Notes under the pieces: generated by a model
What the model was told of the DNA's origin: nothing
The model's database searches: none
Seen by the model: the letters and a program-made list of their open reading frames with translations, nothing else
NCBI GenBank assembly: GCA_003602665.1
Contig: QQSG01000058.1
Span: 1 to 32,507 of the forward strand
Length of the DNA stretch: 32,507 bases
DNA from: Candidatus Poseidoniales archaeon
Lineage (GTDB): Archaea > Thermoplasmatota > Poseidoniia > Poseidoniales > Poseidoniaceae
Direction of reading: 5' to 3'
Program-made: the position numbers and the translations under genes
Shown: positions 13,016-29,506 of the stretch, piece by piece
Layout: each line of letters begins with the position of its first letter
How positions within the stretch are numbered: the stretch's first letter is position 1

Positions 13016-13019
13016 AGTG

Positions 13020-16726: not shown

Positions 16727-17056
16727 ATGAAGCCTATGAGTTCTACGACTCAATCTAAACTAGCGCCATTACGATTGGTACGTGAAATTTGGAGAGAAAT
16801 ATTCCTTGGCGTTGGGATGTGGGGTGCTTTCCGTCCCATCTTCGCAGCCATATTGGCCGCAATCCCTGGGCTTTTCCTAGGACAACACTTCAACCGAAAA
16901 CATCGAAGAGCGTTCGATTGGACCTTACTTCAAATCCCTTTAGCCCTAACAATTGTTCTTTACGTCCCACTCTGGCTATGGTCTATTTATGATGCATGGA
17001 GAGATGCAACAGTCATCGTAGCTGATTCAAAAAAGAATCAAGGACGCCATAATTGA
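16727..17056 (+). CDS. Small integral membrane protein (109 aa, 2-3 TM helices)
   Basis: The hydrophobic segments are IFLGVGMWGAFRPIFAAILAAIPGLFLG and LLQIPLALTIVLYVPLWLWSIY. Its 3' end overlaps the convergent metalloprotease gene by 19 nt. Confidence 0.5.
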   Translation: MKPMSSTTQSKLAPLRLVREIWREIFLGVGMWGAFRPIFAAILAAIPGLFLGQHFNRKHRRAFDWTLLQIPLALTIVLYVPLWLWSIYDAWRDATVIVADSKKNQGRHN

Positions 17057-17829
17057 TCAGTCGTTGAAATCTCTCCAGACTTCATTCCTTCTAGATCTGC
17101 TAAATCATCTTCATCGAATTCACTAGGTAAATCTCCAGAGAAAAATGCACCTAAACTCTGGGATTCCACCGCCCAGTACATCACAGATTCATCGTTGTTT
17201 GAATGACCTGGATGGTCCGCATCCTCATGATCAGCAGGCGAAGTATAAACGAGATTAACAAGACCAAGAAGATGACCAAATTCATGAATCATAACACTGT
17301 TCTCTACTTCCTCAGAGGATGGCCGATTAAACAAACCGTTAGCCTCATCAATTGAATCACCAAACAATGCTATCGTAGATGCATCAACAGCGACACCTAG
17401 GACACTGTCATCTGAATAAGAGCCTTGAGGCATAATAACATGCCAACGAAGTGTAGAGCCACTTTGTGGAGATTCTTCCATTGTATCATGAGCGACGGAG
17501 CGAACCAAATCGGCATTCCAAGAAGACGTCTCCGAGAATGTATGCTCGTTCAAACTCATGGAGATGCCACCTGGTTTGTCACATACTTGTTCAAGTCGTT
17601 GTTTCAATAAAGAGATGGTACTGCTTTCTGGAGCATAACCGGGTGCATAATCGATTTCAACAACCATTTTCGAGTAAGTGTCACTTCGCAAACAAGCTAG
17701 TGTCAAACCTCCAACATTACCCCAGGATTCTCCATTAATAGCATCAGATATTTCATCTAAACAGCCTGCCATTGGCACTGTAACAAGAAGAGATGCCAAA
17801 AAAATACCGAGCAGAGATTGCTTGCTCAT
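17038..17829 (-). CDS. Secreted/lipoprotein zinc metalloprotease (HEXXH zincin, metzincin-like)
   Basis: The signal peptide has a lipobox-like LLVTVPMAGC. The HEXXH site is VMIHEFGHLLGL, with nearby His/Asp residues (HEDADHPGHS) and a possible Met-turn (SVMYW). Tandem AGGAG motifs sit 4 and 10 nt upstream of the ATG (17834-17844). Confidence 0.75.
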   Translation of the reverse strand: MSKQSLLGIFLASLLVTVPMAGCLDEISDAINGESWGNVGGLTLACLRSDTYSKMVVEIDYAPGYAPESSTISLLKQRLEQVCDKPGGISMSLNEHTFSETSSWNADLVRSVAHDTMEESPQSGSTLRWHVIMPQGSYSDDSVLGVAVDASTIALFGDSIDEANGLFNRPSSEEVENSVMIHEFGHLLGLVNLVYTSPADHEDADHPGHSNNDESVMYWAVESQSLGAFFSGDLPSEFDEDDLADLEGMKSGEISTTDQLWRP

Positions 17830-17868
17830 AGTGCTCCTTCTCCTAGGTTCTTCTTGAATGTCATCATA

Positions 17869-18309
17869 TCACCACTCCTCGGGTAAATCAATTGGGGAAA
17901 AGAGTTGGCCCGGGCCATTGGCATCCGCAAGTTGTTGCCGTACCAGTTGTTCCCAAGAACGAAGAGCAAGTATACCTTCGATCAGATTCATCTCAGTCTC
18001 AATGAGCGTTACTCGTATCAATGTTGAAAGAATATCCATTCGGTCTTGATCTACAATCTTCAGAACTTTCTCGACATCGAATGCTATTTGAGAATCTATT
18101 GTTTCATCAGGCGATGTTATTGACCAAGGATTAGCAACTTTCTCATTAATTTGCCCACCGGTCAGAGAAACGTGTTCATTCAATGAAGTCATCATTCCTT
18201 GGATGTGATGTTGTAAAACAAGCGCTACTTCAACAACAGGCATCGTCAATTGGCCAATCAAATTCACCATGCGCTCTTGCAGTGTGACCATCGCATCTGT
18301 TTCAGACAT
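17869..18309 (-). CDS. Hypothetical cytoplasmic protein (146 aa), translationally coupled to the 1798-aa surface protein gene
   Basis: ATG start, only 9 nt after the stop of the upstream giant gene. A GAGG motif lies inside the 3' end of that gene. It has no TM or signal peptide, is acidic and helical, and I recognise no family. Confidence 0.55.
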   Translation of the reverse strand: MSETDAMVTLQERMVNLIGQLTMPVVEVALVLQHHIQGMMTSLNEHVSLTGGQINEKVANPWSITSPDETIDSQIAFDVEKVLKIVDQDRMDILSTLIRVTLIETEMNLIEGILALRSWEQLVRQQLADANGPGQLFSPIDLPEEW

Positions 18310-18318: not shown

Positions 18319-21300
18319 TCACTGAGTGAGTGAATCGATATACTGCCATCCGAAATGGTTCCATTGTTCTTCAGTCCAGCCAGAAGGTAGCCCTGTTGGA
18401 GGAATAGGAGCAATTCCTCTAGGGTCACTTGTTTGACTTACTGGTGCTGGAGTAGATACTTGTGCAGTGACAGTTGGTTGCTGTAGTGGCTGCGGGATAG
18501 GTTGAGGGACTGGTGGTACTGTAATTTGAGGTACGGTTTTCATTTCCATCTCCTCCACGACAACATCCGTCTGGTCCGACTCGAATTCTTCATCACCGTA
18601 TTTCATCTTACGATACATAACTAGCATCCACAAAAATGCAGATAAGGAAGCAATTGCAACGAGATACATAAAGATCGCAAATTGACTATCACTGGCTTGC
18701 TCAGCAAGTGCATCACCGTCTCGAACGGTTTCTTTCTTAACGATGAGAGGATCGACAGTCATTCGATCCATTTCAACCCCATCAACGGTAACGAGTAGTC
18801 GATATTCCTGGGATTCACCAGGACCAACTTCCGCAATCACCGGCAAGGAAACAGATGCGGTTAGACCAGCAGCGACTGGGATTGTCGTGTTGGACTCTGC
18901 GTTCCAATTACCACCTTCAACCAGGCGTTGAAGGATAAAGGAAAGTTCTCCTTTTCCACCTTGATTGGCTACACTTATTTCCAATTCAGAAGAAGAACCT
19001 TGCACAGGACTTGGATTACTCCATTGAATTGAGGTATCTTCGTTATTGAAAGATACACTTGGACCAAGGAGAGCCAGTGGCCATGAGGCAAAGGGTTCTG
19101 CAACATTGTTGTTCGATGTATCAAATGGATTTCCAGAAGCATCTGAGCCTGAAACCCAAATATCAACAACATATGATGGCAAGAGGGTGGTTGCCCCCAT
19201 GTCAGTCAAGTCAATGTTTCCGGTCCAGAAGAACTGATCACCAAATGGAAGTGTCTCAGGAAGAACTGACGCTCCGCGTGAAATCTCAGCCTCACCTGCA
19301 CGTATTCTGTAGTGAAGAATCGCAGGTCTGTCCAAGTCAAATCCATTATCATCAACCGTTTCTAACATAACGAGTAGAGAGTTTGCTTCTCCAATTGAAA
19401 TTGGCGAACCTGCTGGCACTTCATTCAACATGACAGTCTGGATGGTCGGGTTTGAACTATCAACAGCCAATCTTACCCTTGGGAGAGGATCAGTTTCATC
19501 CATTGCCAAACCAGGTAAATCAGCTAATTGTAGACGGAAATCAAGATGCCCGCTATTTACTGATGGGACCAAGAGGTCGAGACTGAATTCTCCGTTCGTT
19601 CGTGGTGAAGTTTTCCAAACGTTGTCAAAGTCTCCAAAGACAACATCGAATGCACCAGGAGGTGCTGGGGTCTCGTCTTCGCTGAACAAAACACGTCCAG
19701 TTACACGGAGAGCCTGTCCAGAACCAATCAATGTTTCTTCGACTTCGTCATTGTAATGATTTGTTCCGTCTCTGAGTTCTACTGCCTTGATGTGTCCCGC
19801 TTCAGTATCAAATCTGAAGTCATTATCGAGACTCCATGCATTGTTTCCAAGACCTGAAACCTTTGTGAAACAAGGCGTATCTTCTCCCTCGTTACAAGGC
19901 TTATCAGTTACGCGGAGAACTGGAACAAAGAGTGTTTCCCCGTCAGTATCAAAGGATTCTGGGAACGACCAAGTCAATTGGAATCTCGCACGAATCAGGA
20001 GTTGACTTGCATTTCCTTCAAACGTTGAAATCTCAGAATACAGGTTGGATACTGCAATGAATTCCCCACCTGATTCAAGGTGAGCCTTTGGCATTCCATT
20101 TTCATCTTCCTGAAGTTGGATGAAGATTGAGGTTTCCTCATCGTTTACATCTTGGCCAAGTGCGAATTGAACAAACTGAATGTCTTCCCAACCATTACGG
20201 TCCGAGAGAACGACCTGGGCAGTATACATCACGCCTGGATGGAGTGGCTTTTCATCATCATGTCCGACGATACTTGAATTGGTCAAATCGACTTCTGGCT
20301 CAAACTCTTGACGTATTTGATACGTCGAAAGATCAGCATCCCAACTAGGCATTACCTGACCGGGGGCATAGCCACAAACTTGGGGAGTCGGTGGACACAC
20401 AGGGCCACCTCCCATTGCAACCTGATTATTTTGCCCGTCTTTGCCGGTGACGAAGAAGGAAACCACTTGTCCATGTACAAGCATTGAGTCATCGATGAGG
20501 CCGCTAAAGATGTTCAACCCACCTGCAATTGTTTCAGGAGAAGACAATGTCTTCTGAGTATATTCGTCTTCTTGAGGCAATCCGTCAAAGTTGAAATCAT
20601 GGCAACCTAAAGCCACAGTTGATTTACATCCTATCCAATAGTGAAGGCTAATTTGTGTCGGTGGGTCAACACTGTCTTGAATGTTAACAGTAAGACTCTG
20701 ACCACCTGGTGCAGGAGGTCCAACATGCCGTTCTTGACCATCAAACGGGAGAGCACCAAGCACAAGAGGAGAATTACCATCAAGAACCAAACGAATTGTA
20801 TTGTATCCTGGATTCGAATACTCAGAGCCATTTGGCAGATTAATAGCTTCGACATAGAAAATCATTCCACCCGGTGTGGATTCAATTGGAGATTCAAAAG
20901 TCAAATTGTAAGAACCAAAACTTGGATTTGATTCTTGAGCAAGAATAACTGGTTGACCTATTGGATCACCATCATATGACACGTTTTGTCCAAGGACACG
21001 TAGTTCGAATTCTCCAGCCAGTGGAGATAATTGTGAAGACTGAAAATGGATTGTTCCGAGGAACGAAATGTTCTGTCCACCTCGAACCCAATCTTGTGTA
21101 AACAATTGCCGCCCATCTTCATCGAAGACCTGCATTCCATCGAGTTGAATATCGTTTTCTACACGGAGTTCCATCTTTTCAGTATCCCAGTCCGACACAG
21201 CAGTTCCAAAGGAGTCTTTGACAGTAAGAATCGCTTCTGTAGCCTGTTCATCATCCCAAGACCAATCAACAGTCACTGGAATCCGAATGGTTCGCACATC

Positions 21301-23715
21301 GTTGCTATCGATTGAAGAGGTACAGTTTGAAACATCGAATTGAACGATTCCATCTGCATCATCAATGGAACTACATGTATCCCCTTGTTGCCACTTGAAG
21401 GATGGATTTTGACCATGAGAATTATTGAGAGCAGTAATGACTTCAGTGACGTAATTCACCTCATCTCCATGTGCAACTTTAATGATTAGATTTCGGGCAA
21501 TACCGTCTGGAGCAGCCATGCCTCCTTCGAAAACAGCACTAATGGCGTGCGTATTCATCTTGTAGGACACATCTATGTTGGTTATTTTGACACGTCCAGC
21601 GGTTTGTGCTTTGATGGCGAGTGGTACTTCAACAAATCCTTCTCCATTATCTGGTATAAAATCGTTAAAAGCGTCCACAAGAGTTGGTTGGAATTCAACA
21701 TCTTGACCGACGATTGAGTCATCATTTACGTTAATAGACGATTCATTCAGGAAAAGAATACTCTTCCAATCAAAGACACCATCATAGCCGACATCGATTT
21801 TTGGCTTGTCCGGATATCCTTCTTCATAGAAGAGTTCCAGACTATCTAAAACTGGTGTGATAAACGGATCTGTTGTCGTCATTGAAACAGCATAACGCAG
21901 AACATTACCTGCCCCATCGGTTGAAAAACTTGTTTCAACCATATTTTCTGCGGATTGCCATGTTGTTCCATCATCATTGGAAACCTGAACCGTGAGGGTC
22001 GTGGATGGGTCTTGTGTAGCAGTCCATTGTGGCCGAACTTTACCCACCTTTGTACCAGTAGGCTTAGCGGGAGAAATCCAGGTTCCGCTTGTTTCGTATT
22101 CAGTAGAATATTCTAGATCAACCCACCAAGATACAGCAGTAGAACCAATCAGAGTCGCTTTCCAGACGAGCTCGGTCCCTGGGTGTTCGAAATGAACGGT
22201 TGTATTGGATTCGACTTGAACCCAGTGAGTACCGTTGTCAGCAGATACCCAATAATCAACTCGATCGCCAATGGAAGCAGCAGACCACAATGTTTCCATG
22301 TTTACCGCAAGTACGTTCTCGACAGTATTGATTACAGGACCAAGCCATGTCGTTGTACCGGGTGCTGGCGTCGTCTTGTATGTCCAACTTGTACCAAACT
22401 CGTGATATGAAGGCGTACTTGACCACGTCGAGTATCCTGAATCAACAGTAAGGAATCGCTGGCCATCATAGAATAGGCCATAACCAAGCGAGGAAATACT
22501 ACGAATAGAATTCTCTGGGATCAGAGCAGTTGCTGTTCCTGAACGACCCCATGCTTCAAGTTGATCACGGTCATTGTAATATTGACCGTCTTGACATCGC
22601 ATGAAGAAATGTGTTTCGTTCATTTCTAGACCACGTGCTTGTTGGTTGGTTACACCACACTGCCAAATTGAAGAAGAGGAGGTTTGGAATGTGAAGGATT
22701 CGTCTCCTCGTTCAAGATTCCCGGCGTCATTCAATTGATAGGATTGTATTCTTCGATTCTGGTTATGCAAAATCCAAATGGTGTCATCGACTGGATCATA
22801 CGTAATACCAGTGTAGTCGCCGTTTCCTTGTGGCTGGAATGAGTTGATACAAACCCATTCATTTTCGTTTGAGATATCAAATTCTAAGACTCGGTGGTAG
22901 AGTGTATTCGCAGTTGAACTGTAGAAGTATTTGTAGCCCGAGAGGACGGCGAAAAGTCGTTCATCATCTGTTACAACCCAATCTCTGAAGCCATATTGAC
23001 CATAATAAGATGAGGAATGTTTTGAGGGCAATGTACATCCGTTTTGGTCGAGTGTAATGATGCTCTCACGTGTTCCATTATTTGGATACAATCGATGAAC
23101 GATGTTGTGAAAAGAAGTCGATGACCATGTAGAGAGATACAACCAATCGTGATGGCGAAGAACAGCTCCTTGTCCTTGAGCGTTCAAAGAGTTAGGGGCT
23201 AACTTTCGTTGTTGGGAAAAGAGGGCATCCGTTGAGTTTGATGTGTGAGGTTGGCGAACTGCGTAAGTCCCATTATCCAGCCAAGCAGTGCTGGAGGGAT
23301 TCACATCCTCGTCCATGCTGTGTGCATTAAAGGCCCGACTAACATTTGCCATAGCAAGAGTCAAGTCAGAACTTTTGTTATCCGAATTCGATGCTTCACC
23401 AGCAACCCAATGATCTCGAGTCGTGGTCGGGATAGAAGACCAACCTGTTGCTGATGCTCCAGATAGGGTCATTTGAACATCGGTTACTTCCGCTCCCTTT
23501 GGAAGTGATATCTTAGCACCGCTGTCAGCATTTCCGCCTTGATACAGTGCAATATATTCAGTCGTTCCATCACTAAATTCGTAGGTGTGTCGTGCAACTT
23601 CTGCAGCTTCTGCATTTTCGATCCAGAGTTCACTGAATGGAGACATGCTCATGCCCATAAATAGGGAAAGAAGCAGCGCTGCTATGGTTCGCCTCGAGAC
23701 AAAGTTTGCACTCAT
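18319..23715 (-). CDS. Giant membrane-anchored surface protein (1798 aa): signal peptide, beta-propeller-like N-terminal region, many beta-sandwich-like modules, C-terminal TM and a 97-aa Pro/Trp-rich cytoplasmic tail
   Basis: ATG start. The signal peptide is RRTIAALLLSLFMGMSMSPF. The propeller-like repeats include GITYDPVDDTIWILHNQNRRIQSY. There are numerous NxS/T sequons. The TM helix is FAIFMYLVAIASLSAFLWMLVMY (about 18613-18681). The tail reads VPPVPQPIPQPLQQP...PPTGLPSGWTEEQWNHFGWQYIDSLTQ. Confidence 0.85.
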   Translation of the reverse strand: MSANFVSRRTIAALLLSLFMGMSMSPFSELWIENAEAAEVARHTYEFSDGTTEYIALYQGGNADSGAKISLPKGAEVTDVQMTLSGASATGWSSIPTTTRDHWVAGEASNSDNKSSDLTLAMANVSRAFNAHSMDEDVNPSSTAWLDNGTYAVRQPHTSNSTDALFSQQRKLAPNSLNAQGQGAVLRHHDWLYLSTWSSTSFHNIVHRLYPNNGTRESIITLDQNGCTLPSKHSSSYYGQYGFRDWVVTDDERLFAVLSGYKYFYSSTANTLYHRVLEFDISNENEWVCINSFQPQGNGDYTGITYDPVDDTIWILHNQNRRIQSYQLNDAGNLERGDESFTFQTSSSSIWQCGVTNQQARGLEMNETHFFMRCQDGQYYNDRDQLEAWGRSGTATALIPENSIRSISSLGYGLFYDGQRFLTVDSGYSTWSSTPSYHEFGTSWTYKTTPAPGTTTWLGPVINTVENVLAVNMETLWSAASIGDRVDYWVSADNGTHWVQVESNTTVHFEHPGTELVWKATLIGSTAVSWWVDLEYSTEYETSGTWISPAKPTGTKVGKVRPQWTATQDPSTTLTVQVSNDDGTTWQSAENMVETSFSTDGAGNVLRYAVSMTTTDPFITPVLDSLELFYEEGYPDKPKIDVGYDGVFDWKSILFLNESSINVNDDSIVGQDVEFQPTLVDAFNDFIPDNGEGFVEVPLAIKAQTAGRVKITNIDVSYKMNTHAISAVFEGGMAAPDGIARNLIIKVAHGDEVNYVTEVITALNNSHGQNPSFKWQQGDTCSSIDDADGIVQFDVSNCTSSIDSNDVRTIRIPVTVDWSWDDEQATEAILTVKDSFGTAVSDWDTEKMELRVENDIQLDGMQVFDEDGRQLFTQDWVRGGQNISFLGTIHFQSSQLSPLAGEFELRVLGQNVSYDGDPIGQPVILAQESNPSFGSYNLTFESPIESTPGGMIFYVEAINLPNGSEYSNPGYNTIRLVLDGNSPLVLGALPFDGQERHVGPPAPGGQSLTVNIQDSVDPPTQISLHYWIGCKSTVALGCHDFNFDGLPQEDEYTQKTLSSPETIAGGLNIFSGLIDDSMLVHGQVVSFFVTGKDGQNNQVAMGGGPVCPPTPQVCGYAPGQVMPSWDADLSTYQIRQEFEPEVDLTNSSIVGHDDEKPLHPGVMYTAQVVLSDRNGWEDIQFVQFALGQDVNDEETSIFIQLQEDENGMPKAHLESGGEFIAVSNLYSEISTFEGNASQLLIRARFQLTWSFPESFDTDGETLFVPVLRVTDKPCNEGEDTPCFTKVSGLGNNAWSLDNDFRFDTEAGHIKAVELRDGTNHYNDEVEETLIGSGQALRVTGRVLFSEDETPAPPGAFDVVFGDFDNVWKTSPRTNGEFSLDLLVPSVNSGHLDFRLQLADLPGLAMDETDPLPRVRLAVDSSNPTIQTVMLNEVPAGSPISIGEANSLLVMLETVDDNGFDLDRPAILHYRIRAGEAEISRGASVLPETLPFGDQFFWTGNIDLTDMGATTLLPSYVVDIWVSGSDASGNPFDTSNNNVAEPFASWPLALLGPSVSFNNEDTSIQWSNPSPVQGSSSELEISVANQGGKGELSFILQRLVEGGNWNAESNTTIPVAAGLTASVSLPVIAEVGPGESQEYRLLVTVDGVEMDRMTVDPLIVKKETVRDGDALAEQASDSQFAIFMYLVAIASLSAFLWMLVMYRKMKYGDEEFESDQTDVVVEEMEMKTVPQITVPPVPQPIPQPLQQPTVTAQVSTPAPVSQTSDPRGIAPIPPTGLPSGWTEEQWNHFGWQYIDSLTQ

Positions 23716-23764
23716 TGATTACACGCAGAACTTGGAACATTATCAAGCGTTCCGTTCCAGGACA

Positions 23765-26700
23765 CTAAGTGGTTTGACGAGAATCATACCGGATTGGGGA
23801 ACTTTCACCCCGACTTCCGTCCTGTTCATCATCATTGACTTCAAACCAGTCAACCATCCAGTCGCCATCAGTATCCCACTTTGTTGGGTCTGTTCCTTCA
23901 GCAACGTGATCGTTGTTGTAGTCTAAGAGGTACCAGCCCAACTCATGTTCTCCGACGGAACGGACAGGAGCTGTATTTGGAGCACCTGTGTAGTAAATTT
24001 CCCATGAATCTGTGAGATTACCTGCGCATTGAATTACGTGATTCGTAGCATCTTGTACCAAGAATTCGACATCATTGTCATCAACGAGATAAGCATATCT
24101 GAAATCATTACTTTGGGATTTATCCATCTTAAGATAATTTTTCACACCTTCATCCCATTGGCCAATACCGAGCATTAACGAACGGAGTTGCCACCCTTCC
24201 TGTACAACTTGACCTTCAAACGTCAGGCCAGACAATCGAACCGCATTCGGGCTTGAGAGAGATTCGGTTGTTATACCGAAATACTCTTGGAAATTTGTGT
24301 ATGGCTCATAAGAACATCCAGCTCCTGAACAATCCCAATTTCCATCTTGATCAGGGTCATAATTTGCATCGATGGCATCACGTGGGTCCATCGTAAACCA
24401 AGCAAAATCAAGATCCGGTCGCTGCAAGGTTCCAGCATTCAGCGATAATGGTAAGCAGGAATTCGTAGAGGTATCACATGCCCCTCCAGTTGCAGGATCA
24501 ATCCAGACTACGCTAATTTGGAGATAAGAAGAGTAGTTGTCGTTGGTCTCATTCCAAGCTTTAGCATACTCATACCAATCTGGAATCATGTCACCATCAG
24601 TATCGTTATCCATTGGATTTGTTCCATATTTGAACACTTCACGACCATCTGTCAAGTTGAAGTCTTGGTAATGTTCTGTCACTTGGCCATTACTAACAAT
24701 CGTCACATACGATTCTGAGTCTTTGTCGCTATCGTTGAGATCGGGTCTGGTCTCGTTATCCCACTCCATCCAGTTTGTGAAAGGAAGTGAACCAATACCT
24801 GGTTGAATAACTTGAGAAGATGGGGTGAATGTACGGGCGTCCCAATCACCTTGGACAGCAGGTACATCAAACACAGTACGCCCATACCAGCCATCAGAAT
24901 CACCATCATAATTGACGTCATATGGATTCAATGGATTTGAAGCCCAATGGTTTGCAGTCGTAGGGTTATCCATGCCGTAAAGGGCGTAACAATATTCCCA
25001 GCCATCAGGAATTCCATCAGAGTCTGAATCGGGATGTGTTGGATCTGCAACACCAACAAGGGTTCTGTTGAAATTGTTCTCATTGTACGAGTTAATCGTA
25101 TTCATTCGACTTACAGAGTCTGGTCCTTTCGCCTTGAAATCATCAATCAATGATTGTCGTGCTTGAAGAAGTGAAAGACCTTCTTCTTCCACATATGCGT
25201 TCATTGCATCCTCGCCGAAGTCAACAATACCAACCGATGCAGGCACTGAACTTCGATTGAGATATTTCCCCCAAGTTCGGGACTCCCATTCCCTTAAGTT
25301 TGAGAAACGTTCATCCAAGTCAATGGTCCCATCCTTATTGCAATCATAGCTGTCACCATCAGAATCTAAGTTGACATCCGTTTCAATTAAAGGATTTAGC
25401 CCCCAACGGTTTTCGTTAAGATCCCATGAAGTGAACCAGTATTCAAATCCGTCATACATGCCATCATCATCAGTATCAGGGTTGGTTGGATCGGTCATAC
25501 CCAGCAGAAGAGAGATGAATACATTCGGAGGTTCGCCAGACTGCCATGCATTGAAATCATCGAGTAATCGCTTCCCACGGGAATCTTTTGAGATTAATAT
25601 TTGGAACACGCGTTGTGCCTTTTTCGTTGGTTGTTGGACATCTCCATCGACGTGCATCAGAGGCGCATCAGCAGGAGCAGATATTCCATTTTCAGGATTT
25701 GATGTTGCTAAGGCGAACTCCTGCAAGTCAACCAATCCGTCATTGTCGCTGTCAAAGGTTCCATCTCCTGCGACAACTGGATTTAATGTCCATGTCATGG
25801 CGGAAATGTTCCAGGCAGTAAAGAGTAATTCCAATCCATCAATAATGCCATCACCATCAGTATCGACATTGTTTGGGTCACCTGTTGGGCCACTAATGTT
25901 GTATTGTTCTTCACTGATGAAGGCACCAAAGGATTGAGTCGTAGAAGCAGAAGGCCATTGTTGGAAGGCATATGCTGAACCCAAAGTTGTTACAAACCAC
26001 TGTGGTGATGAACGGTTTGCGTTCGTTTCTGAGAGTGCTGAATCAATGAGATTGTATTCTTCCCAGTTTGTCATTCCATCATCGTCTGCATCGAGCCAAC
26101 GGTCACTTGGCTGAATTGGATTAAGCGTCCAATCATCATCAAGTATGTTCCAACGAGCAAACCAGATTTCCCATCCATCAGGCATTCCGTCCTCATCACT
26201 ATCAGCCTTGAATGGATCACATGCACCCTTTTCGAGAGGGATTTGTGTTGCAAGTATTGCACCACTTGCTCGTTCTGCAAAAGTAGCTTCTGGAAGGCCA
26301 AAATCACTGATGTTATCGAATAAGTCTGTGTGGAAACCAGAAGGTAGTTCCATACCAGAAAGTGTTTGATTGTTGAGGAACAAATCAGTTGAGATATGAT
26401 ATTCAAGATAATTTACAAACATCTCACTCGGTTCCAAAACTCCGTTTTTGTTCACATCATATCCATCGCCATCTGGATTTTCGAAAGCATCAGAACCGTT
26501 CATTGGATTGACGCCAACTCGGAGAGGTGACCAAGTGCATTGACCGTCTGCTTCCCATCCATCTGGCAGAGTATCACCATCAGAATCAAAGAGATTCGGG
26601 TCAGGTATAGACCAAGTTGCTGCAGATTCTGGACTCTCCCCATAATCTTCAAACAGGTCACCTGCAAGTCCAGCAAGTCGAACTAACGACCATTCATACT

Positions 26701-29506
26701 CACACAAATTAGCAAGTCCGTCTCGATCAGCATCCCACCCTGCATCTTCTGCTCGAGTAGGGTCAAGAGACCAGTTATTACCGCCATTGAACGAATTTCC
26801 AATCCATCTACGATGCTCAATCTCCCATCCATCCGGCATACCATCACCATCTGTATCGATTACAGTAGGGTCTGTTCCTACATCGAGTGCATTCGTTGTT
26901 GTGTAGAGCGTTCTTGCTTGTTCTCCTAGTGTTTCATCACAAAGATAAATCAATTGAGGATTGTAGTAACAGTCGAAATTAGTTTCCTCTAAGAAATATC
27001 CGAAATATTCAGAACCATCCGAAAGACCGTCTAGATCAGAATCGCTTTGATTCGGAAGGGTCGAATTGTAACCCTCATCTGTACGGGCAATAAAGCGATA
27101 TTCTTCCAAATTGCTCCACAATCTGTCAAGGGATCCATCCTGATTCAAATCAAGACCGTCAACATCTCCATCCAACAAGGCATCCCAAGGATCGGTTGGG
27201 TCAAGTCCGTAGGCTATTTCCCAACCATCAGGCATCCCATCGCTGTCAGAATCGTTTGCTCCGGGGTCAATCAATTCGAGATTAGCAAACCGTCCGGGGG
27301 CAGCGCCAGCAAGAACGTATGTCTGACCGTTCTTTTCTAGAGTAGCAAGCGAAGCAAGTTCACCCGGTAGTTGAGATTGTGTCTGGAGACCATAAACATC
27401 CAGATGATTTCCTGCAAGAACCCACAATCCGGCAGATGATCCGACTATAATCTCGTCACCTGTAGGTAAAATTGAATGGATATTATTTGACTTTGAGAGT
27501 TCATCGGCATCGCCCCCTGGATGTTCAAGTAATCCACCAAATGTCATGTCATTAATTTCTAAATTCAATCGGTGCAAGCCAGAAGGTGTTCCAATCCAAA
27601 GTACAGTCGGATTGTCTTCATTTGGCCCATCAAGGTAGAGCGCTTGTACTTCAGCAGGGTTTCCACTTGCTCCGAGATTCAATGTTCGCAATTCATCAAT
27701 ACGATTTGAGATTAGAGAAGGATTCGGGTCGAAAAAGAAGCGCCATGATGGCGTAGCTTCGTCTCTGCCAGTCGCAGATTCAAGGGTCATGAGGCCACGT
27801 TCAGTTCCTACGTAGAGTACAAGGCCACCTCCAGGAACACTTCCATGTGTTACTTCTGTAACTGTGACTTCCGATTCAGAAAGTGTTGCTTTGAGATTAA
27901 GGCCCAGTTCAAATGTTTGTGAAATCAACCCACCTGTTGTGACTTCGAATACTGCGCCATCACCATTTGAACCAAGAGCGATAATCTGTTGTGATGATCC
28001 GTCGATCGCAAGCTGTGTTAATGCAAAGAGCGATACGGCTTCACTGGAAGACCAAGAGTCAATCGGCTCCAAGAATCCATCGACTTGGATTGCGGCAACG
28101 TGCATTCCGTGCGAGGTCGCTATTGCAACTGAATGAGGCCCATCATCAGATTCTACGAAGATTGCCTCGTATCCGGTGAACCCTTGAGGGAACCAATAAT
28201 CTTGAGTTGTTTCTAGTTCGTAATCAAGTACTGTCATTCCGTATCGTGTAAGCACATATGCAGTCGAATCTTCGACAAGTATGCTACGGACATCGTGGTG
28301 CATGATTGCCATGCTGCCTTCTACAGCATTGAACGTTAGCGGATAGTTGTAATAAGAAGAATCGTTCGAACCAATCTGAATTTCTTTTAGTCCAGACATG
28401 ACAGTATTACCTTCGTCGTTGTGTATGTAGAACTCTTCCAGATTGGATAACGATTCTCCAAGTGCCAAAGCAGTTTCAGTACGACTTACATCAATTGAAA
28501 CTACACCGTCTCGATTCAAATCCCAACCATCACGATCGATGTCGAGAAGAGCATTTGAACGATTCAATGGGTCCAATCCAAAGTGCACTTCCCATCCATC
28601 AGGCATTCCATCACCGAACGAAGGATAGAGTGGACGAATAGAGAAACCATCCCAACTGTATCGATCTGAATCTTCTAGAAGAGGATCTGTACCAAGCCAC
28701 AAATCTTCGCCAACAACTGACGTGGCATTCGTAGTACAGGCCGGAAGTAAATTTTGGAATGAAGCGTTAACACCGGTATTAATGAACGGCCATTGCGTAA
28801 TCACAGAACCTTGCGGGAGGGTAGCCGAACACCATAGACCATCAAGTTCAGTGGTGAAGTTGCTGGGTGAACCAAATCTATATTCCTCTGGAGAAGTGTA
28901 TTGCTCAGCTACTGAAATGAATCCATCTCTGTTCACGTCAAATCCATCATCATCTGGATCATCAGTCATGTCGCTGTTGTTCAGAGGATCGAAATACGGG
29001 CAAACATATCTGAGTGTTACGACATCGAACCCACCTGCACGAGCACACATAGCGGCTTCAAATCCATCAGGCATGCCATCGCCATCTGTATCCGACAAAC
29101 GTGGGTCGAGATACAATCGATCTCCATTCTCATCCAATAGACCCGTTAGTCCTCTTGAAAAACCCGGGTCATTACAATTTGCCGGATATGGCCAACAGTA
29201 CTCTTCCGTATTGTTTAGCCCGTCTCGATCTGTATCGAAATTAGCATCCGAAGCATCGTCTTTATCCATACCTTCCATCGAAACAAATCGACCATCGATT
29301 GCGCTAAAGTTCACCCATTCCTCGAAAATGTTCTCGTGCACATCAGGGATTCCATCGCCGTCAGTGTCCGTAGTTGGTGGTTTTTCACCTGTTGTGTCAT
29401 CGGGGTGAATATTCGAGACCGGAGAAATCGTAGGAAACTGCGACATGAAGAGAAGCCCTGCGATTACTGCGAGAGTGGAGAGTAAGGTTGTCTGACTTCG
29501 TCGCAA
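23765..29506 (-). CDS. Giant secreted Ca-binding repeat protein (1913 aa): about 25 thrombospondin-type-3-like/EF-hand-like loops flanking a central beta-propeller-like region, with no TM anchor
   Basis: The start is TTG at 29504-29506, with AGGTG 5 nt upstream. The signal peptide is MRRSQTTLLSTLAVIAGLLF. Recurrent motifs include DTDGDGMPDGWE, DSDSDGMPDGWE and DADRDGLANLCEY. Canonical EF-hand loops include DVNRDGFISVAE, DVNKNGVLEPSE and DCNKDGTIDLDE. Residues about 385-745 carry propeller-type strands (VGTERGLMTL, LWIGTPSGLHRL, VGSSAGLWVL). The C-terminus is hydrophilic. Confidence 0.85.
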   Translation of the reverse strand: MRRSQTTLLSTLAVIAGLLFMSQFPTISPVSNIHPDDTTGEKPPTTDTDGDGIPDVHENIFEEWVNFSAIDGRFVSMEGMDKDDASDANFDTDRDGLNNTEEYCWPYPANCNDPGFSRGLTGLLDENGDRLYLDPRLSDTDGDGMPDGFEAAMCARAGGFDVVTLRYVCPYFDPLNNSDMTDDPDDDGFDVNRDGFISVAEQYTSPEEYRFGSPSNFTTELDGLWCSATLPQGSVITQWPFINTGVNASFQNLLPACTTNATSVVGEDLWLGTDPLLEDSDRYSWDGFSIRPLYPSFGDGMPDGWEVHFGLDPLNRSNALLDIDRDGWDLNRDGVVSIDVSRTETALALGESLSNLEEFYIHNDEGNTVMSGLKEIQIGSNDSSYYNYPLTFNAVEGSMAIMHHDVRSILVEDSTAYVLTRYGMTVLDYELETTQDYWFPQGFTGYEAIFVESDDGPHSVAIATSHGMHVAAIQVDGFLEPIDSWSSSEAVSLFALTQLAIDGSSQQIIALGSNGDGAVFEVTTGGLISQTFELGLNLKATLSESEVTVTEVTHGSVPGGGLVLYVGTERGLMTLESATGRDEATPSWRFFFDPNPSLISNRIDELRTLNLGASGNPAEVQALYLDGPNEDNPTVLWIGTPSGLHRLNLEINDMTFGGLLEHPGGDADELSKSNNIHSILPTGDEIIVGSSAGLWVLAGNHLDVYGLQTQSQLPGELASLATLEKNGQTYVLAGAAPGRFANLELIDPGANDSDSDGMPDGWEIAYGLDPTDPWDALLDGDVDGLDLNQDGSLDRLWSNLEEYRFIARTDEGYNSTLPNQSDSDLDGLSDGSEYFGYFLEETNFDCYYNPQLIYLCDETLGEQARTLYTTTNALDVGTDPTVIDTDGDGMPDGWEIEHRRWIGNSFNGGNNWSLDPTRAEDAGWDADRDGLANLCEYEWSLVRLAGLAGDLFEDYGESPESAATWSIPDPNLFDSDGDTLPDGWEADGQCTWSPLRVGVNPMNGSDAFENPDGDGYDVNKNGVLEPSEMFVNYLEYHISTDLFLNNQTLSGMELPSGFHTDLFDNISDFGLPEATFAERASGAILATQIPLEKGACDPFKADSDEDGMPDGWEIWFARWNILDDDWTLNPIQPSDRWLDADDDGMTNWEEYNLIDSALSETNANRSSPQWFVTTLGSAYAFQQWPSASTTQSFGAFISEEQYNISGPTGDPNNVDTDGDGIIDGLELLFTAWNISAMTWTLNPVVAGDGTFDSDNDGLVDLQEFALATSNPENGISAPADAPLMHVDGDVQQPTKKAQRVFQILISKDSRGKRLLDDFNAWQSGEPPNVFISLLLGMTDPTNPDTDDDGMYDGFEYWFTSWDLNENRWGLNPLIETDVNLDSDGDSYDCNKDGTIDLDERFSNLREWESRTWGKYLNRSSVPASVGIVDFGEDAMNAYVEEEGLSLLQARQSLIDDFKAKGPDSVSRMNTINSYNENNFNRTLVGVADPTHPDSDSDGIPDGWEYCYALYGMDNPTTANHWASNPLNPYDVNYDGDSDGWYGRTVFDVPAVQGDWDARTFTPSSQVIQPGIGSLPFTNWMEWDNETRPDLNDSDKDSESYVTIVSNGQVTEHYQDFNLTDGREVFKYGTNPMDNDTDGDMIPDWYEYAKAWNETNDNYSSYLQISVVWIDPATGGACDTSTNSCLPLSLNAGTLQRPDLDFAWFTMDPRDAIDANYDPDQDGNWDCSGAGCSYEPYTNFQEYFGITTESLSSPNAVRLSGLTFEGQVVQEGWQLRSLMLGIGQWDEGVKNYLKMDKSQSNDFRYAYLVDDNDVEFLVQDATNHVIQCAGNLTDSWEIYYTGAPNTAPVRSVGEHELGWYLLDYNNDHVAEGTDPTKWDTDGDWMVDWFEVNDDEQDGSRGESSPIRYDSRQTT
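23840..29368 (-). repeat. Dispersed imperfect coding repeats of about 30 nt (plus-strand consensus about CCATCCATCAGGCATNCCATCNCCATCNGTATC) encoding D-x-D-G-D-G-M-P-D-G-W-E
   Basis: Copies read by eye are at 23840-23875, 25002-25030, 26171-26203, 26555-26587, 26825-26857, 27221-27253, 28592-28618, 29061-29092 and 29333-29368. Further diverged copies lie near 24580, 25450 and 25840. Confidence 0.8.

What the first reader, a model, noticed from the sequence alone, without database searches (positions are those of the whole stretch)
17038..29506. Candidate uncharacterised cell-surface system: operon of two giant surface proteins, a coupled cytoplasmic orphan and a lipoprotein zinc protease
Four co-directional genes occupy 12.5 kb, with spacers of 49, 9 and 39 nt.

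- The first product (1913 aa) has a signal peptide but no membrane anchor, and is built from Ca-binding loops around a beta-propeller.
- The second (1798 aa) has a signal peptide, a C-terminal TM anchor and a 97-aa cytoplasmic tail.
- The third (146 aa) is cytoplasmic and starts 9 nt after the giant gene's stop.
- The fourth is a lipobox-bearing HEXXH protease.

I infer a two-part surface assembly. The anchored giant would retain the unanchored Ca-binding giant, the 146-aa protein would engage the anchor's cytoplasmic tail, and a co-expressed protease would either process the proteins or digest captured substrate. Pilin-like genes are transcribed divergently from the same 165-bp spacer. I recognise no characterised system with this composition.
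Basis: partly seen in the sequence, partly recalled or inferred. Interest (0 to 1): 0.75.

Follow-up and report, generated by a model that had tools for sequence, protein, structure and literature searches.

The report
Giant surface-protein cluster of Poseidoniales
This is a real, uncharacterised cell-surface gene cluster of the abundant marine Group II archaea, but only the calcium-binding giant and the small cytoplasmic protein are always present; the membrane-anchored giant and the protease are lost independently in many lineages.

Summary
Four co-directional minus-strand genes have spacers of 49, 9 and 39 nt and the stated features. One detail is wrong: the first divergent gene is a metallo-beta-lactamase-fold hydrolase, and the pilin-like genes come after it.

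The window is from a Poseidoniaceae (MGIIa) archaeon.
- **G1 (1913 aa):** a thrombospondin-type-3 Ca-binding repeat protein. Its variable central beta-propeller is related to Bacteroides glycan-sensor propellers (E=1e-12).
- **G2 (1798 aa):** no Pfam or PDB sequence match. It models confidently as a propeller head, Asp-box sandwiches and an Ig-like stalk; a TM helix and 97-aa tail follow.
- **S (146 aa):** models as a confident helical bundle with no structural match.
- **PROT:** a lipobox zincin that lacks the third metzincin histidine.

All four genes are syntenic throughout MGIIa, but so is the surrounding ~25 kb. MGIIb is informative: G1 and S are always present. G2 is absent in 25-29 and PROT in 35 of 68-72 informative loci, independently of each other (Fisher p=0.45).

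S therefore follows G1, not G2's tail, and the obligate four-part model fails. G1 and G2 do co-vary in evolutionary rate (r=0.78). A 30-nt box upstream of G1 is conserved across the order.

Function remains inferred: Ca-stiffened surface binding or coat.

The parts
29555..29584 (-). Conserved non-coding box upstream of G1: GTATGAACAACGCTCCATCATTCCTATAAG. The core is GAACNNNGYWCCAYCA, then 4 nt, then a TATA-like xATAAG.
   Evidence: There is one copy in each of 85 MGIIa and MGIIb loci that include the G1 upstream region. It always lies 59-81 nt before the G1 start, with only one stray match elsewhere. Its role as a promoter or operator is inferred.
23765..29506 (-). G1: 1913-aa acidic Ca-binding giant (TTG start). 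It is the invariant core gene.
   Evidence: ORF. Full-length homologues run from 100% down to 43% identity, reaching Thalassarchaeaceae. TSP3_bac hits 18/18 homologues. It has 27 N-glycosylation sequons and 17.8% Asp+Glu. It is present in every locus examined.
29417..29506 (-). G1 N-terminus (aa 1-30), MRRSQTTLLSTLAVIAGLLFMSQ: a signal peptide or an uncleaved signal anchor.
   Evidence: It is the only hydrophobic segment of G1. It is 61% conserved, against 39% for the G2 signal peptide, and has no AxA site. It has no Gly/Ala at -1, so it is not a class III pilin signal.
27257..28444 (-). G1 central beta-propeller (aa 355-750), Reg_prop type; the least conserved part of G1.
   Evidence: The profile matches Bacteroides hybrid two-component sensor propellers: 3v9f E=9.9e-13, 4a2l E=1.2e-10, 3ott E=1.5e-6. 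Identity to homologues is 27-42% here, against mostly 50-70% in the flanks.
23768..27256 (-). G1 C-terminal array of TSP3/EF-hand-like Ca-binding repeats (aa 751-1913). A shorter array lies N-terminal at 28445-29377.
   Evidence: The DxDxDG motifs are invariant across 18 homologues. There are weak NCBIfam hits to CglD and MtsD through these repeats.
23739..23751 (-). AACGCTTGATAAT in the 49-nt G1-G2 spacer: a possible internal TATA/promoter for G2.
   Evidence: It resembles AACGCTCCATCAT in the G1 box. The pattern was derived from these two sites, so the test is circular, and it is conserved only in the clade with at least 80% identity. This is weak evidence.
18319..23715 (-). G2: 1798-aa type I membrane giant. 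It is an accessory gene, lost in some MGIIb lineages.
   Evidence: ORF. There are 176 or more homologues, with no Pfam or PDB sequence match. Only 194 hits were found among 1.84 billion representatives. It was absent next to G1/S in L085, L087 and 25-29 metagenome loci.
22381..23604 (-). G2 head (aa ~38-445): an N-terminal beta-sandwich plus an NHL-like beta-propeller.
   Evidence: The AlphaFold model of aa 38-1237 has pLDDT 85.6 and is all-beta. Foldseek matches include the NHL propeller 7nyq (TMt 0.49), plexin and integrin alpha ectodomains, and mastigoneme Mst1 (E=1.4e-11). Boundaries are approximate.
21796..22380 (-). G2: two Asp-box beta-sandwich domains (aa ~446-640), carrying SADNGTHW and VSNDDGTTW.
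   Evidence: The Asp-box residues are invariant. The segment recurs 7-12 times in other giants, where Pfam calls it Reelin_subrepeat-B/BNR; one of these is a 2859-aa flagellin.
18778..21795 (-). G2 stalk of Ig-like beta-sandwich domains, ending in a CARDB-like domain (aa 1564-1646).
   Evidence: The model is all-beta up to aa 1237. The window copy hits CARDB weakly (E=0.005), but distant full-length relatives hit it clearly (2e-13). The part after aa 1237 was not modelled.
18613..18681 (-). G2 transmembrane helix (aa 1679-1701).
   Evidence: Hydropathy score 2.29.
18322..18612 (-). G2 97-aa Pro/Gln-rich cytoplasmic tail, ending in PPTGLPSGWTEEQWNHFGWQY.
   Evidence: The motif residues are invariant in 12 MGIIa homologues. 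They are replaced by unrelated tails in MGIIb G2 proteins. The motif is unique in the window.
17869..18309 (-). S: 146-aa cytoplasmic helical protein. It is an invariant core gene, always directly after the last giant gene.
   Evidence: It has 550 homologues. The model has pLDDT 87.2 and pTM 0.82. No structural match was found in PDB or BFVD; the best E-values were 2.5 and 1.0. No family hit. It follows G1 when G2 is missing.
17038..17829 (-). PROT: 263-aa lipobox zincin. It is an accessory gene, absent in about half of the MGIIb-type loci.
   Evidence: The lipobox Gly-Cys (17761-17772) is invariant in 80 sequences. So are HExGHLLGLxN, His201-Glu202, His209-Ser210 and Ser-Val-Met (17179-17286). 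Peptidase_M10 is hit in 13/13 homologues but below its cut-off. Presence and absence.
29638..30510 (+). Metallo-beta-lactamase-fold gene, divergent from G1 (probable ATG at 29671). It is the true partner of the shared spacer.
   Evidence: Lactamase_B_2 E=1.6e-14. It is adjacent to G1 in every locus that reaches that far.
30578..32507 (+). Type IV pilin-like genes: pil346 (30578-31618) and the start of a ~700-aa second gene. A third gene (~157 aa, DUF7266-like) lies beyond the window.
   Evidence: There are weak Pilin_N/DUF7289/DUF7266 hits, and the N-termini show class III-type signals such as DDG|VSEILGV. The trio is absent from the lineage that has only G1 and S.
16727..17056 (+). h109: a small two-TM protein, convergent with PROT and overlapping its 3' end by 19 nt.
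   Evidence: It is conserved in every locus, with or without PROT. Two hydrophobic segments.

Best explanation
**What it is.** The region is a lineage-specific cell-envelope gene cluster of Poseidoniales (marine Group II archaea). It is modular, not a fixed four-part machine.

**Fixed core**
- **G1** is an exported, heavily glycosylatable, Ca-binding repeat protein. Its TSP3 repeats would stiffen in seawater calcium. They display a fast-evolving Reg_prop-type propeller, which probably binds a glycan or particle ligand.
- G1 is held either by its own conserved N-terminal helix or by partners at the surface.
- **S** is a small cytoplasmic helical protein with no detectable structural relative, encoded directly after the last giant gene. 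I infer that S is a dedicated biogenesis or regulatory factor for G1, for example a holdase or targeting factor for a ~200-kDa export substrate.

**Accessory modules**
- **G2** is a type I membrane glycoprotein: a propeller head, two Asp-box sandwiches, an Ig-like stalk, a CARDB domain, a TM helix and a Pro-rich tail.
- **PROT** is a membrane-tethered zincin.
- Each has been lost or gained independently of the other.
- In MGIIa, including this window, all four genes are present and G1 and G2 co-evolve. G2 probably acts there as a membrane-anchored partner of G1, and PROT probably trims or sheds surface proteins.

**Shown versus inferred**
- Shown: gene content, domain and fold assignments, presence/absence patterns, rate covariation and the conserved upstream box.
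- Inferred: ligand binding, the role of S, the G1-G2 contact and the substrates of PROT.
For: **Taxon and family extent**
- Hits are named Poseidoniaceae, Poseidoniales or Thalassarchaeaceae.
- 244 GTDB species genomes carry a G2 relative.

**G1**
- TSP3_bac in 18/18 homologues.
- Propeller profile against 3v9f/4a2l: E=1e-12 and 1e-10.
- The propeller is the most variable segment.
- Sequons are enriched: 27 in G1 and 18 in G2, against 0-2 in the five non-giant proteins counted.

**Core versus accessory**
- Eight curated loci.
- 68 informative metagenome loci: G2-S without PROT 24; G2-S-PROT 19; G1-S-PROT 14; G1-S without PROT 11. Fisher p=0.45.
- The G1-S junction is tight; in L087 the two genes overlap by 4 nt.

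**S**
- Confident model (pLDDT 87, pTM 0.82) with no structural or family match.
- Invariant motifs include the C-terminal PGQLFSP...PE[DE][WF].

**G2**
- Model pLDDT 85.6.
- Foldseek finds propeller-plus-Ig-stalk ectodomains: mastigoneme, plexin, integrin alpha and alpha-2-macroglobulin.

**Constraint and covariation**
- G1 and G2 diverge as slowly as DnaJ: mean distances 0.34 and 0.35, against 0.34 for DnaJ.
- G1-G2 residual rate correlation is 0.78, the highest of all pairs.

**Dedicated control**
- The box upstream of G1 is conserved across the order.
Against: - No expression, localisation or interaction data exist, so every functional step is inference.
- The role proposed for S rests only on gene adjacency and co-occurrence. 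Its rate covariation with G1 is as low as with G2 (0.20).
- Absence of G2 or PROT was scored only at the locus. A relocated copy elsewhere in those genomes is not excluded.
- The metagenome loci are not phylogenetically independent, so counts reflect lineage abundance.
- Rate covariation between two long, slowly evolving surface proteins can arise from a shared selective regime without contact. G1-DnaJ is also 0.57.
- Within MGIIa the whole neighbourhood is collinear, so PROT and even S could be neighbours by descent.
- Glycan binding is extrapolated from distant sensor propellers.
Confidence: 0.5

Rival explanations
1. One reading: an obligate four-part assembly. Anchored G2 retains unanchored G1, S docks on G2's 97-aa cytoplasmic tail, and PROT processes the assembly.
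For: - All four genes are present in the same order in every sufficiently long MGIIa locus.
- The 9-nt G2-S junction is compatible with translational coupling.
- The G2 tail has an invariant motif within MGIIa.
- G1-G2 rate covariation is 0.78.
Against: - G1+S occur without G2 in L085, L087 and 25-29 of the metagenome loci, and without PROT in 35.
- G2 and PROT presence are statistically independent (p=0.45).
- The tail motif is absent from MGIIb G2 proteins that still have S next to them.
- S-G2 covariation is only 0.20.
- MGIIa synteny extends over ~25 kb of unrelated genes.
Confidence: 0.1
2. A two-component S-layer or cell coat. G1 would form the Ca-dependent outer lattice and G2, where present, the membrane stalk, as with SlaA/SlaB of Sulfolobales.
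For: - G1 is universal, found once per locus (genome-wide copy number was not checked), and as conserved as DnaJ.
- Both giants are rich in N-glycosylation sequons.
- G1 is acidic and Ca-binding.
- One partner is anchored and the other is not.
- G1 and G2 co-vary.
- The envelope of Poseidoniales is undescribed in the searched literature.
Against: - No S-layer protein appears in the listed top 50 of 160 Foldseek hits for G2.
- There is no sequence match to any solved S-layer protein.
- G2 is dispensable in abundant lineages.
- Abundance and lattice formation were not testable here.
Confidence: 0.15
3. No system at all. These are independent surface-protein genes plus unrelated small genes, adjacent only through inherited gene order in a slowly rearranging genome.
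For: - The whole neighbourhood, from the pilin-like genes to ArcTGT, keeps the same order in all 80 species loci and largely also in MGIIb.
- PROT and G2 come and go independently.
- In the L001/L079 clade the G1-G2 spacer carries a GC hairpin with a T run that looks like a terminator.
Against: - When G2 is deleted, S ends up directly abutting G1, overlapping it in L087, rather than being lost or separated.
- G1 and G2 share the strongest rate covariation.
- All four products are envelope-directed or coupled to envelope genes.
- Spacers are short, and the S-PROT spacer carries a Shine-Dalgarno-like GGAGAAGGAG.
Confidence: 0.15
4. G2 is an outside-in receptor resembling integrin alpha or plexin. 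Its propeller head would sense a ligand, possibly G1 or a substrate bound by G1. Its conserved Trp-rich cytoplasmic motif would signal to a cytoplasmic partner, and PROT would act as a sheddase.
For: - Foldseek matches integrin alphaX/alphaM and plexin A2 ectodomains (E~1e-6).
- The MGIIa tail motif PPTGLPxGW[ST]xxQWxH[YF]GWQY is invariant.
Against: - The fold matches have low TM-scores (0.12-0.16) and reflect generic propeller-plus-Ig architecture.
- No signalling domain or partner was identified.
- The tail is not conserved across families.
Confidence: 0.1

Closest known systems
Bacterial TSP3-repeat surface proteins (Pfam TSP3_bac; for example Myxococcus CglD and MtsD)
   Same: G1 carries the same DxDxDGxxDxxE calcium-binding repeats. 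TSP3_bac is hit in 18/18 homologues, and there are weak NCBIfam hits to CglD and MtsD. NCBI names one homologue a 'thrombospondin type 3 repeat-containing protein'. Rinke et al. 2018 list 'thrombospondin genes' of Poseidoniales as adhesion genes (PMC6461757).
   Different: The NCBIfam scores are far below the family cut-offs (44.7 against 400 bits). G1 is archaeal, has no VWA domain and no gliding machinery, and has an inserted Reg_prop propeller. It is paired with S.
Periplasmic sensor propellers of Bacteroides hybrid two-component systems (PDB 3v9f, 4a2l/4a2m, 3ott)
   Same: G1 aa 355-750 matches them by profile (E=9.9e-13, 1.2e-10 and 1.5e-6), with the repeated xWxGTxxGLxxxD blade motif.
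   Different: There is a single propeller rather than the tandem propellers of those sensors. There is no Y_Y_Y domain, kinase or response-regulator part. The propeller is embedded in a Ca-binding repeat scaffold. Pfam Reg_prop itself is hit in only 1 of 14 sequences, weakly. Glycan binding is my extrapolation from what I recall of these sensors, not a test.
Integrin alpha, plexin and Chlamydomonas mastigoneme Mst1 ectodomains
   Same: G2 has a beta-propeller head followed by a long array of Ig-like sandwiches. For integrin alpha, it also shares the single TM helix and short tail. These are the best Foldseek hits.
   Different: Sequence identity is 7-12% and TM-scores are 0.09-0.29. No FG-GAP or Sema signature was detected by Pfam. 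No beta-subunit analogue is present. The resemblance is one of architecture, not family membership.
Sulfolobales SlaA/SlaB two-component S-layer
   Same: There are two adjacent genes for large glycosylated surface proteins, one without and one with a C-terminal TM anchor.
   Different: No sequence or fold similarity was detected. The anchored partner here is as large as the other and is dispensable in several lineages. Lattice formation is unknown.
LapA/LapG/LapD adhesin-release system of Pseudomonas
   Same: A giant Ca-binding repeat adhesin is encoded beside a dedicated envelope protease that could release it.
   Different: LapG is a cysteine protease, whereas PROT is a zincin. There is no type I secretion and no c-di-GMP receptor. 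PROT is missing in about half of the MGIIb-type loci. The analogy comes from memory and was not tested.
Matrixin/metzincin metalloproteases (Pfam Peptidase_M10)
   Same: PROT has HEFGHLLGL and an invariant Ser-Val-Met ~30 residues later that looks like a Met-turn. Peptidase_M10 is the top Pfam hit in 13/13 homologues.
   Different: All scores are below the cut-off (16.8 against 24 bits for the window copy), and only the HExxH stretch aligns. The third zinc histidine of HExxHxxGxxH is an invariant Asn. No solved relative was found by sequence.

Membership tests
TSP3 (thrombospondin type 3) Ca-binding repeat proteins - G1 | Multiple DxDxDGxxDxxE-type repeats recognised by Pfam TSP3_bac | tested here: met
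   G1 has 19 strict and 32 relaxed motifs. TSP3_bac is hit in 18/18 homologues, best E=1.3e-13. The window copy scores 22.6 bits, just under the 25-bit cut-off.
Reg_prop-type beta-propeller (hybrid two-component sensor domain) - G1 aa 355-750 | Sequence-profile similarity to solved Reg_prop propellers | tested here: met
   hmmsearch of the family profile against PDB gives 3v9f 9.9e-13, 4a2l 1.2e-10 and 3ott 1.5e-6.
Reg_prop-type beta-propeller (hybrid two-component sensor domain) - G1 aa 355-750 | Full sensor architecture: tandem propellers, Y_Y_Y domain, TM helix, kinase and receiver | tested here: not met
   Pfam finds no Y_Y_Y, HisKA, HATPase or response-regulator domain in G1 or its neighbours. 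G1 shares the propeller fold only and is not a hybrid two-component sensor.
Metzincin / matrixin (M10) - PROT | Extended zinc motif HExxHxxGxxH(D) with a third His/Asp ligand | tested here: not met
   The motif is HEFGHLLGLVN, with Asn192 invariant in 80 sequences. Other invariant His residues (201, 209) may substitute.
Metzincin / matrixin (M10) - PROT | Pfam Peptidase_M10 score at or above the gathering cut-off | tested here: not met
   The window copy scores 16.8 bits against a 24-bit cut-off. The best E among 13 homologues is 2e-4, and only ~14 residues align.
Metzincin / matrixin (M10) - PROT | Met-turn downstream of the zinc site | tested here: inconclusive
   Ser215-Val216-Met217 is invariant, but no structure was predicted for PROT.
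Lipoprotein - PROT | Lipobox [LVIM][ASTG][GAS]C at the end of a signal peptide | tested here: met
   The window copy has MAGC, and Gly-Cys is invariant in 80 sequences after a hydrophobic N-terminus. Lipidation itself is not testable here.
Archaeal S-layer protein systems (SlaA/SlaB and other solved S-layer proteins) | Sequence or fold similarity to a known S-layer protein | tested here: not met
   There are no PDB sequence hits for the G2 profile or the G1 propeller profile. No S-layer entry appears in the top 50 Foldseek hits for G2 aa 38-1237. Full-length G1 and G2 aa 1238-1798 were not fold-searched.
Archaeal S-layer protein systems (SlaA/SlaB and other solved S-layer proteins) | Forms a regular 2D lattice and is among the most abundant cell proteins | not testable with these tools
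   This needs cryo-ET and proteomics of Poseidoniales cells.
Integrin alpha-like receptors - G2 | FG-GAP repeat propeller and pairing with a beta subunit | tested here: not met
   Pfam finds no FG-GAP domain in 12 homologues, and no beta-like gene lies in the locus. Foldseek similarity to 3k6s/7usm is architectural only (TM 0.12-0.16).
Archaeal type IV pilins - neighbours and G1 N-terminus | Class III signal: charged N-terminus, Gly/Ala at -1, then a hydrophobic helix | tested here: met
   This is met for the neighbouring trio: DDG|VSEILGV, EDA|VSAAVATV and KNA|ASTELGYV, with weak Pilin_N/DUF7289/DUF7266 hits. It is not met for G1, which has MRR[KS]QTTLL with no Gly/Ala at -1.
   No cohesin or dockerin hit was found at E<=1 in 18 G1 and 12 G2 homologues; there are only weak EF-hand hits.
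   It is met within MGIIa. It is not met across the order, where G1+S occur with all four combinations of G2 and PROT (24, 19, 14 and 11 loci).

The most novel reading that the evidence does not exclude
G1 plus S would be an order-wide, dedicated two-gene module in which three things hold. First, G1 is the principal Ca-dependent surface coat or capture protein of the ocean's most abundant planktonic Euryarchaeota. Second, S is a dedicated cytoplasmic export or assembly factor for a ~200-kDa substrate, with no detectable structural relative. Third, transcription is controlled through a unique cis-element that has stayed nearly invariant since MGIIa and MGIIb split. Loss or gain of G2, PROT and the pilin trio would then tune lifestyle, for example particle-attached versus free-living.
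Probability: 0.2. Interest if true: 0.75.

Novelty: new variant of a known kind. Interest (0 to 1): 0.5.

Why it matters
Poseidoniales are among the most abundant archaea in surface oceans. They remain uncultured, and the literature searched here gives no molecular picture of their envelope.

This locus encodes two of their largest and most constrained surface proteins, which are as conserved as DnaJ.
- One carries a sensor-type propeller that could mediate binding to algal glycans or particles.
- The modular pattern of G2, PROT and the pilin trio gives a concrete marker set to correlate with niche.
- S and G2 are protein families with no annotation. S also appears to have a previously undescribed fold.
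- The conserved box upstream of G1 offers a handle for finding a lineage-specific regulator.

None of this is surprising in kind, because giant adhesin-like proteins are common. It does, however, turn a vague 'thrombospondin genes = adhesion' annotation into a testable module.

Tried and rejected
1. **S more conserved than G2.** I got this impression from the hit list. It was wrong: tblastn across 80 loci shows S at ~55-60% identity where G2 is ~60%.
2. **G2 lost together with the pilin trio.** L085 suggested this. L087 and five metagenome loci keep the trio without G2, which refutes it.
3. **G1 as a giant pilin with a class III signal.** Rejected: there is no Gly/Ala at -1.
4. **The conserved upstream box as a uORF or tRNA remnant.** By inspection of the sequences, the ATG is not conserved (TCCGAAC or TCGGAAC in many loci) and I saw no T-stem complement.
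5. **A conserved 5' leader hairpin.**
   - The window hairpin has z=-2.2.
   - The leaders could not be aligned.
   - 75 leaders give a mean z of only -0.77.
   - It is not robust.
6. **A shared motif in the G1 box and the G1-G2 spacer.** The test is circular, and the motif is confined to one clade.
7. **Rfam scan of the window.** No matches.
8. **Structure prediction with sequences taken from loci.** I solved this by obtaining protein ids through the cluster look-up.
9. **Context of a distant G2-like protein.** P0396 (~22% identity) is not syntenic with any of the other genes.
10. **Literature.** No paper on this cluster, on a Poseidoniales S-layer, or on these proteins.
11. **Not done.** No complex predictions were available.

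Full report
**Observation**

The window carries four minus-strand ORFs:
- G1: 23765-29506, 1913 aa, TTG start.
- G2: 18319-23715, 1798 aa.
- S: 17869-18309, 146 aa.
- PROT: 17038-17829, 263 aa.

The spacers are 49, 9 and 39 nt, exactly as reported.

Neighbouring genes mark the window as archaeal. They include a DUF5591 protein (probably ArcTGT), ribosomal S13/S15, a Pilin_N-like protein and DnaJ. Named database homologues place it in Poseidoniaceae, that is marine Group II a.

The gene that shares the ~165-nt divergent spacer with G1 is a metallo-beta-lactamase-fold gene (Lactamase_B_2 E=1.6e-14), not a pilin gene. Pilin-like genes follow from 30578.

**G1**

- All 18 diverse homologues hit Pfam TSP3_bac, best E=1.3e-13. 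The window copy is just under the cut-off.
- G1 has 19 strict and 32 relaxed DxDxDG motifs, 17.8% acidic residues and 27 N-glycosylation sequons.
- A profile of aa 355-750 matches the solved periplasmic sensor propellers of Bacteroides hybrid two-component systems: 3v9f E=9.9e-13, 4a2l E=1.2e-10, 3ott E=1.5e-6.
- The propeller is the least conserved part of G1, at 27-42% identity against mostly 50-70% in the repeat scaffold.
- The only hydrophobic segment is N-terminal. It is well conserved (MRR[KS]QTTLL..., 61% identity) and lacks an AxA site. The G2 signal peptide, by contrast, is variable (39%) and ends in AEA.
- Whether the G1 helix is cleaved or serves as a signal anchor is open. It is not a class III pilin signal.
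- The database entry for the identical protein is 20 residues shorter, probably from a miscalled start. The TTG start with an AGGTG Shine-Dalgarno sequence is conserved in close relatives.

**G2**

- Neither the protein nor a 12-member profile matches any Pfam family above its cut-off or any PDB sequence.
- An exhaustive search of 1.84 billion representative proteins with aa 1-1200 found only 194 hits. A few are full-length relatives at 42-63% identity, and a few are ~1650-1750-aa proteins at 21-25% identity.
- An AlphaFold model of aa 38-1237 is confident (pLDDT 85.6) and all-beta.
- Foldseek returns ectodomains built from a propeller plus Ig-like arrays:
  - mastigoneme Mst1 (E=1.4e-11);
  - plexin A2;
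  - integrin alphaX and alphaM;
  - complement C5 and alpha-2-macroglobulin;
  - an NHL propeller (TMt 0.49).

  No S-layer protein appears among the top 50.
- Residues ~446-640 carry two Asp-box motifs. They are homologous to a unit repeated 7-12 times in other giants, where Pfam calls it Reelin_subrepeat-B/BNR. One of these is a 2859-aa bacterial flagellin.
- A CARDB-like domain precedes the TM helix (aa 1679-1701), and the tail is exactly 97 aa.
- The tail ends in PPTGLPxGW[ST]xxQWxH[YF]GWQY. The motif is invariant in MGIIa but replaced by unrelated tails in MGIIb.

**S and PROT**

*S*
- S has 550 homologues of 145-146 aa and no family or PDB sequence match.
- With an alignment that includes MGIIb members it models as a helical bundle (pLDDT 87.2, pTM 0.82).
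- That model has no significant match in PDB (best E=2.5) or in BFVD (best E=1.0).
- Invariant motifs include QE...Q..MP..E near the N-terminus, DRMDI..T.IR, R.WE, and a C-terminal PGQLFSP...PE[DE][WF].

*PROT*
- PROT has an invariant lipobox Gly-Cys.
- It also has invariant HExGHLLGLxN, His201-Glu202, His209-Ser210 and Ser-Val-Met.
- Peptidase_M10 is the top Pfam hit in 13/13 homologues but always below the cut-off. The third metzincin histidine is an invariant Asn, and no solved relative is detectable by sequence.
- PROT is a zincin of an unclassified family, not a demonstrable matrixin.

**Synteny**

A scan of one genome per GTDB species found G2 relatives in 244 genomes. The best 80 loci are all Poseidoniaceae and include the original MG-II genome CM001443.1.

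In every locus long enough, the order G1-G2-S-PROT is kept. So is the order of about ten flanking genes, from the pilin-like genes to ArcTGT. Synteny within the family therefore says little about functional linkage.

G1 homologues extend at 43-46% identity and full length into Thalassarchaeaceae (MGIIb). There the content varies:

| Locus | Content |
|---|---|
| L084, L088, L090 | all four genes |
| L083, L086, L089 | no PROT |
| L087 | no G2; G1 and S overlap by 4 nt |
| L085 (abundant lineage; S on 362 contigs, 22 similar places) | no G2, no PROT, no pilin trio |

A metagenome scan seeded with MGIIb S proteins gave 68 fully informative loci:

| Arrangement | Loci |
|---|---|
| G2-S, no PROT | 24 |
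| G2-S-PROT | 19 |
| G1-S-PROT (no G2) | 14 |
| G1-S, no PROT (no G2) | 11 |

Four further G1-S loci had an unclear downstream gene.

- G2 and PROT presence are independent (Fisher p=0.45).
- G1, S, the beta-lactamase-fold gene and the small membrane protein h109 are always present.
- Two caveats apply. Absence was scored at the locus only, and the loci are not phylogenetically independent.

**Interaction signals**

No complex prediction was possible. As a weak substitute I computed evolutionary-rate covariation over 44 MGIIa loci, after regressing out a background built from six flanking genes.

| Pair | Residual correlation |
|---|---|
| G1-G2 | 0.78 (highest of all pairs) |
| G2-pil346 | 0.62 |
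| G1-DnaJ | 0.57 |
| G1-pil346 | 0.54 |
| PROT-G1 / PROT-G2 | 0.33 / 0.34 |
| S-G1 / S-G2 | 0.20 / 0.20 |

G1 and G2 are also as slowly evolving as DnaJ: mean distances 0.34, 0.35 and 0.34. This is compatible with a G1-G2 partnership where both exist. It gives no support for an S-G2 contact.

**Regulatory element**

The G1 upstream region contains a block, GT..GAACNNNG[CT][AT]CCA[CT]CA, then 4 nt, then xATAAG (window 29555-29584, minus strand).
- It is present once in each of 85 loci from both families.
- It always lies 59-81 nt before the G1 start, with only one stray match elsewhere.
- For non-coding DNA between lineages whose G1 proteins are 43% identical, this is striking.
- Because it is single-copy per 20-25 kb, it is not a general promoter consensus. 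I read it as a TATA box plus a dedicated operator or activator site. This is an inference.
- The G1-G2 spacer varies between clades. One clade has a TATA-like AACGCTTGATAAT and another a terminator-like GC hairpin with a T run. G1 and G2 may therefore not be strictly co-transcribed.
- The 9-nt G2-S junction and the Shine-Dalgarno-like GGAGAAGGAG before PROT fit coupled expression.
- A leader hairpin seen in the window is not robust across lineages.
- Rfam finds nothing.

**Interpretation**

The cluster is real, lineage-specific and unannotated. It is modular rather than an obligate four-part machine.
- The fixed core is G1 plus S. G2 and PROT are accessory.
- The best-supported reading is that G1 is a Ca-stiffened, glycosylated surface protein presenting a variable propeller, probably for glycan or particle binding.
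- S is then a dedicated cytoplasmic factor for giant-protein biogenesis or regulation.
- G2 is a membrane-anchored partner or receptor in lineages that keep it.
- PROT is a tethered protease acting on surface proteins.
- Only the anatomy, distribution and covariation are shown. The activities are inferred.
- Rivals that cannot be excluded: a two-component S-layer, a receptor model for G2, and mere inherited adjacency for S and PROT.

**Comparison with known systems and novelty**

The only related literature found is the remark by Rinke et al. 2018 that thrombospondin genes are widespread in Poseidoniales and imply adhesion (PMC6461757). No paper in the library describes G2, S, PROT, their linkage or the upstream box.

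The components resemble known kinds:
- G1: TSP3 surface proteins and Reg_prop propellers.
- G2: ectodomains that combine a propeller with an Ig-like stalk.
- PROT: zincins.

The locus fails the membership tests for metzincins, integrins, hybrid two-component sensors, known S-layer proteins and cohesin-dockerin systems. I rate it a new variant of a known kind: a giant surface-protein locus. Its new elements are the S fold, the G2 family and the conserved cis-element. Interest is moderate.

Noticed in passing
window 29555-29584 (- strand); same position in L001-L090, L092-L101, L145-L168: A 30-nt non-coding box (GTATGAACAACGCTCCATCATTCCTATAAG) lies 59-81 nt upstream of G1. It is conserved in 85 loci across both Poseidoniales families and is single-copy per locus. 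It is probably a TATA box plus a dedicated regulator site in the shared G1/beta-lactamase-fold divergent spacer.
   Followed up: partly
window 23716-23764 (G1-G2 spacer); L001 and L079 equivalents: The spacer content differs by clade. The window clade has AACGCTTGATAAT (TATA-like, about 30 nt before the G2 ATG). The L001/L079 clade has CCCCCTAAAGGGGGATTT, a terminator-like hairpin. G1 and G2 may be separate or attenuated transcription units.
   Followed up: partly
window 16727-17056 (+): h109 is a conserved 109-aa protein with two hydrophobic segments. It is convergent with PROT and overlaps its 3' end by 19 nt. It is present in every locus, even where PROT is absent, and has no family match.
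   Followed up: partly
window 15661-16704 (-): A single ORF fuses a pyroglutamyl peptidase domain (Peptidase_C15) to a NUDIX hydrolase domain. The fusion is conserved across the order, although L090 shows the NUDIX part alone.
   Followed up: no
window 30578-32507 (+) and L084 5264-8921: Three co-directional type IV pilin-like genes (~345, ~700 and ~157 aa) give weak DUF7289, DUF7289 and DUF7266 hits and have class III-type signals. They are missing from the MGIIb lineage that also lacks G2 and PROT, but are retained in the lineage that lacks only G2.
   Followed up: partly
L083-L090, positions 1-5300; L085 1-9004: In MGIIb the region beyond the pilin genes carries an ~840-aa AAA_16-TPR (MalT-like STAND) protein and a 1400-1500-aa Beta_helix/Big_7 giant. 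In L085 it also carries a Peptidase_S8 and a 3171-aa ORF containing STT3. Together these look like a larger envelope and glycosylation island.
   Followed up: no
G2 aa ~446-640 (window 21796-22380); P0401, P0378: The G2 Asp-box sandwich pair is homologous to a unit repeated 10-12 times in other giants. One is a 2859-aa protein with bacterial Flagellin_N and Flagellin_C ends, that is a giant flagellin.
   Followed up: partly
window 29447-29506 (G1 start): The public protein identical to G1 (P0241) is 1893 aa. Its start seems to be called 20 codons downstream, which removes the hydrophobic N-terminus. The TTG start with an upstream AGGTG is conserved in close relatives.
   Followed up: partly
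window 25371-25937 (+) and 28722-29408 (+): Long antisense ORFs inside G1 (188 and 228 aa) are Ser/Pro-rich. I take them to be shadows of the Asp/Gly-rich repeat codons rather than genes.
   Followed up: no
L091 (GCA_902514965.1), 10001-15082: A 1693-aa protein has ~22% identity to G2 along most of its length, a clear CARDB domain and a very acidic tail. It sits in an unrelated context (Hjc, Peptidase_M50, a PA14/Laminin_G giant), so the G2 architecture exists outside the cluster.
   Followed up: partly
window 3844-5910 (-), 9659-11881 (+), 13068-14003 (-): Three further conserved proteins of unknown function lie in the same collinear block: 688 aa, 740 aa, and 311 aa with a C-terminal zinc ribbon. 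The 740-aa protein is among the fastest-evolving genes of the neighbourhood (26-38% identity in loci where G2 is 54-62%).
   Followed up: no
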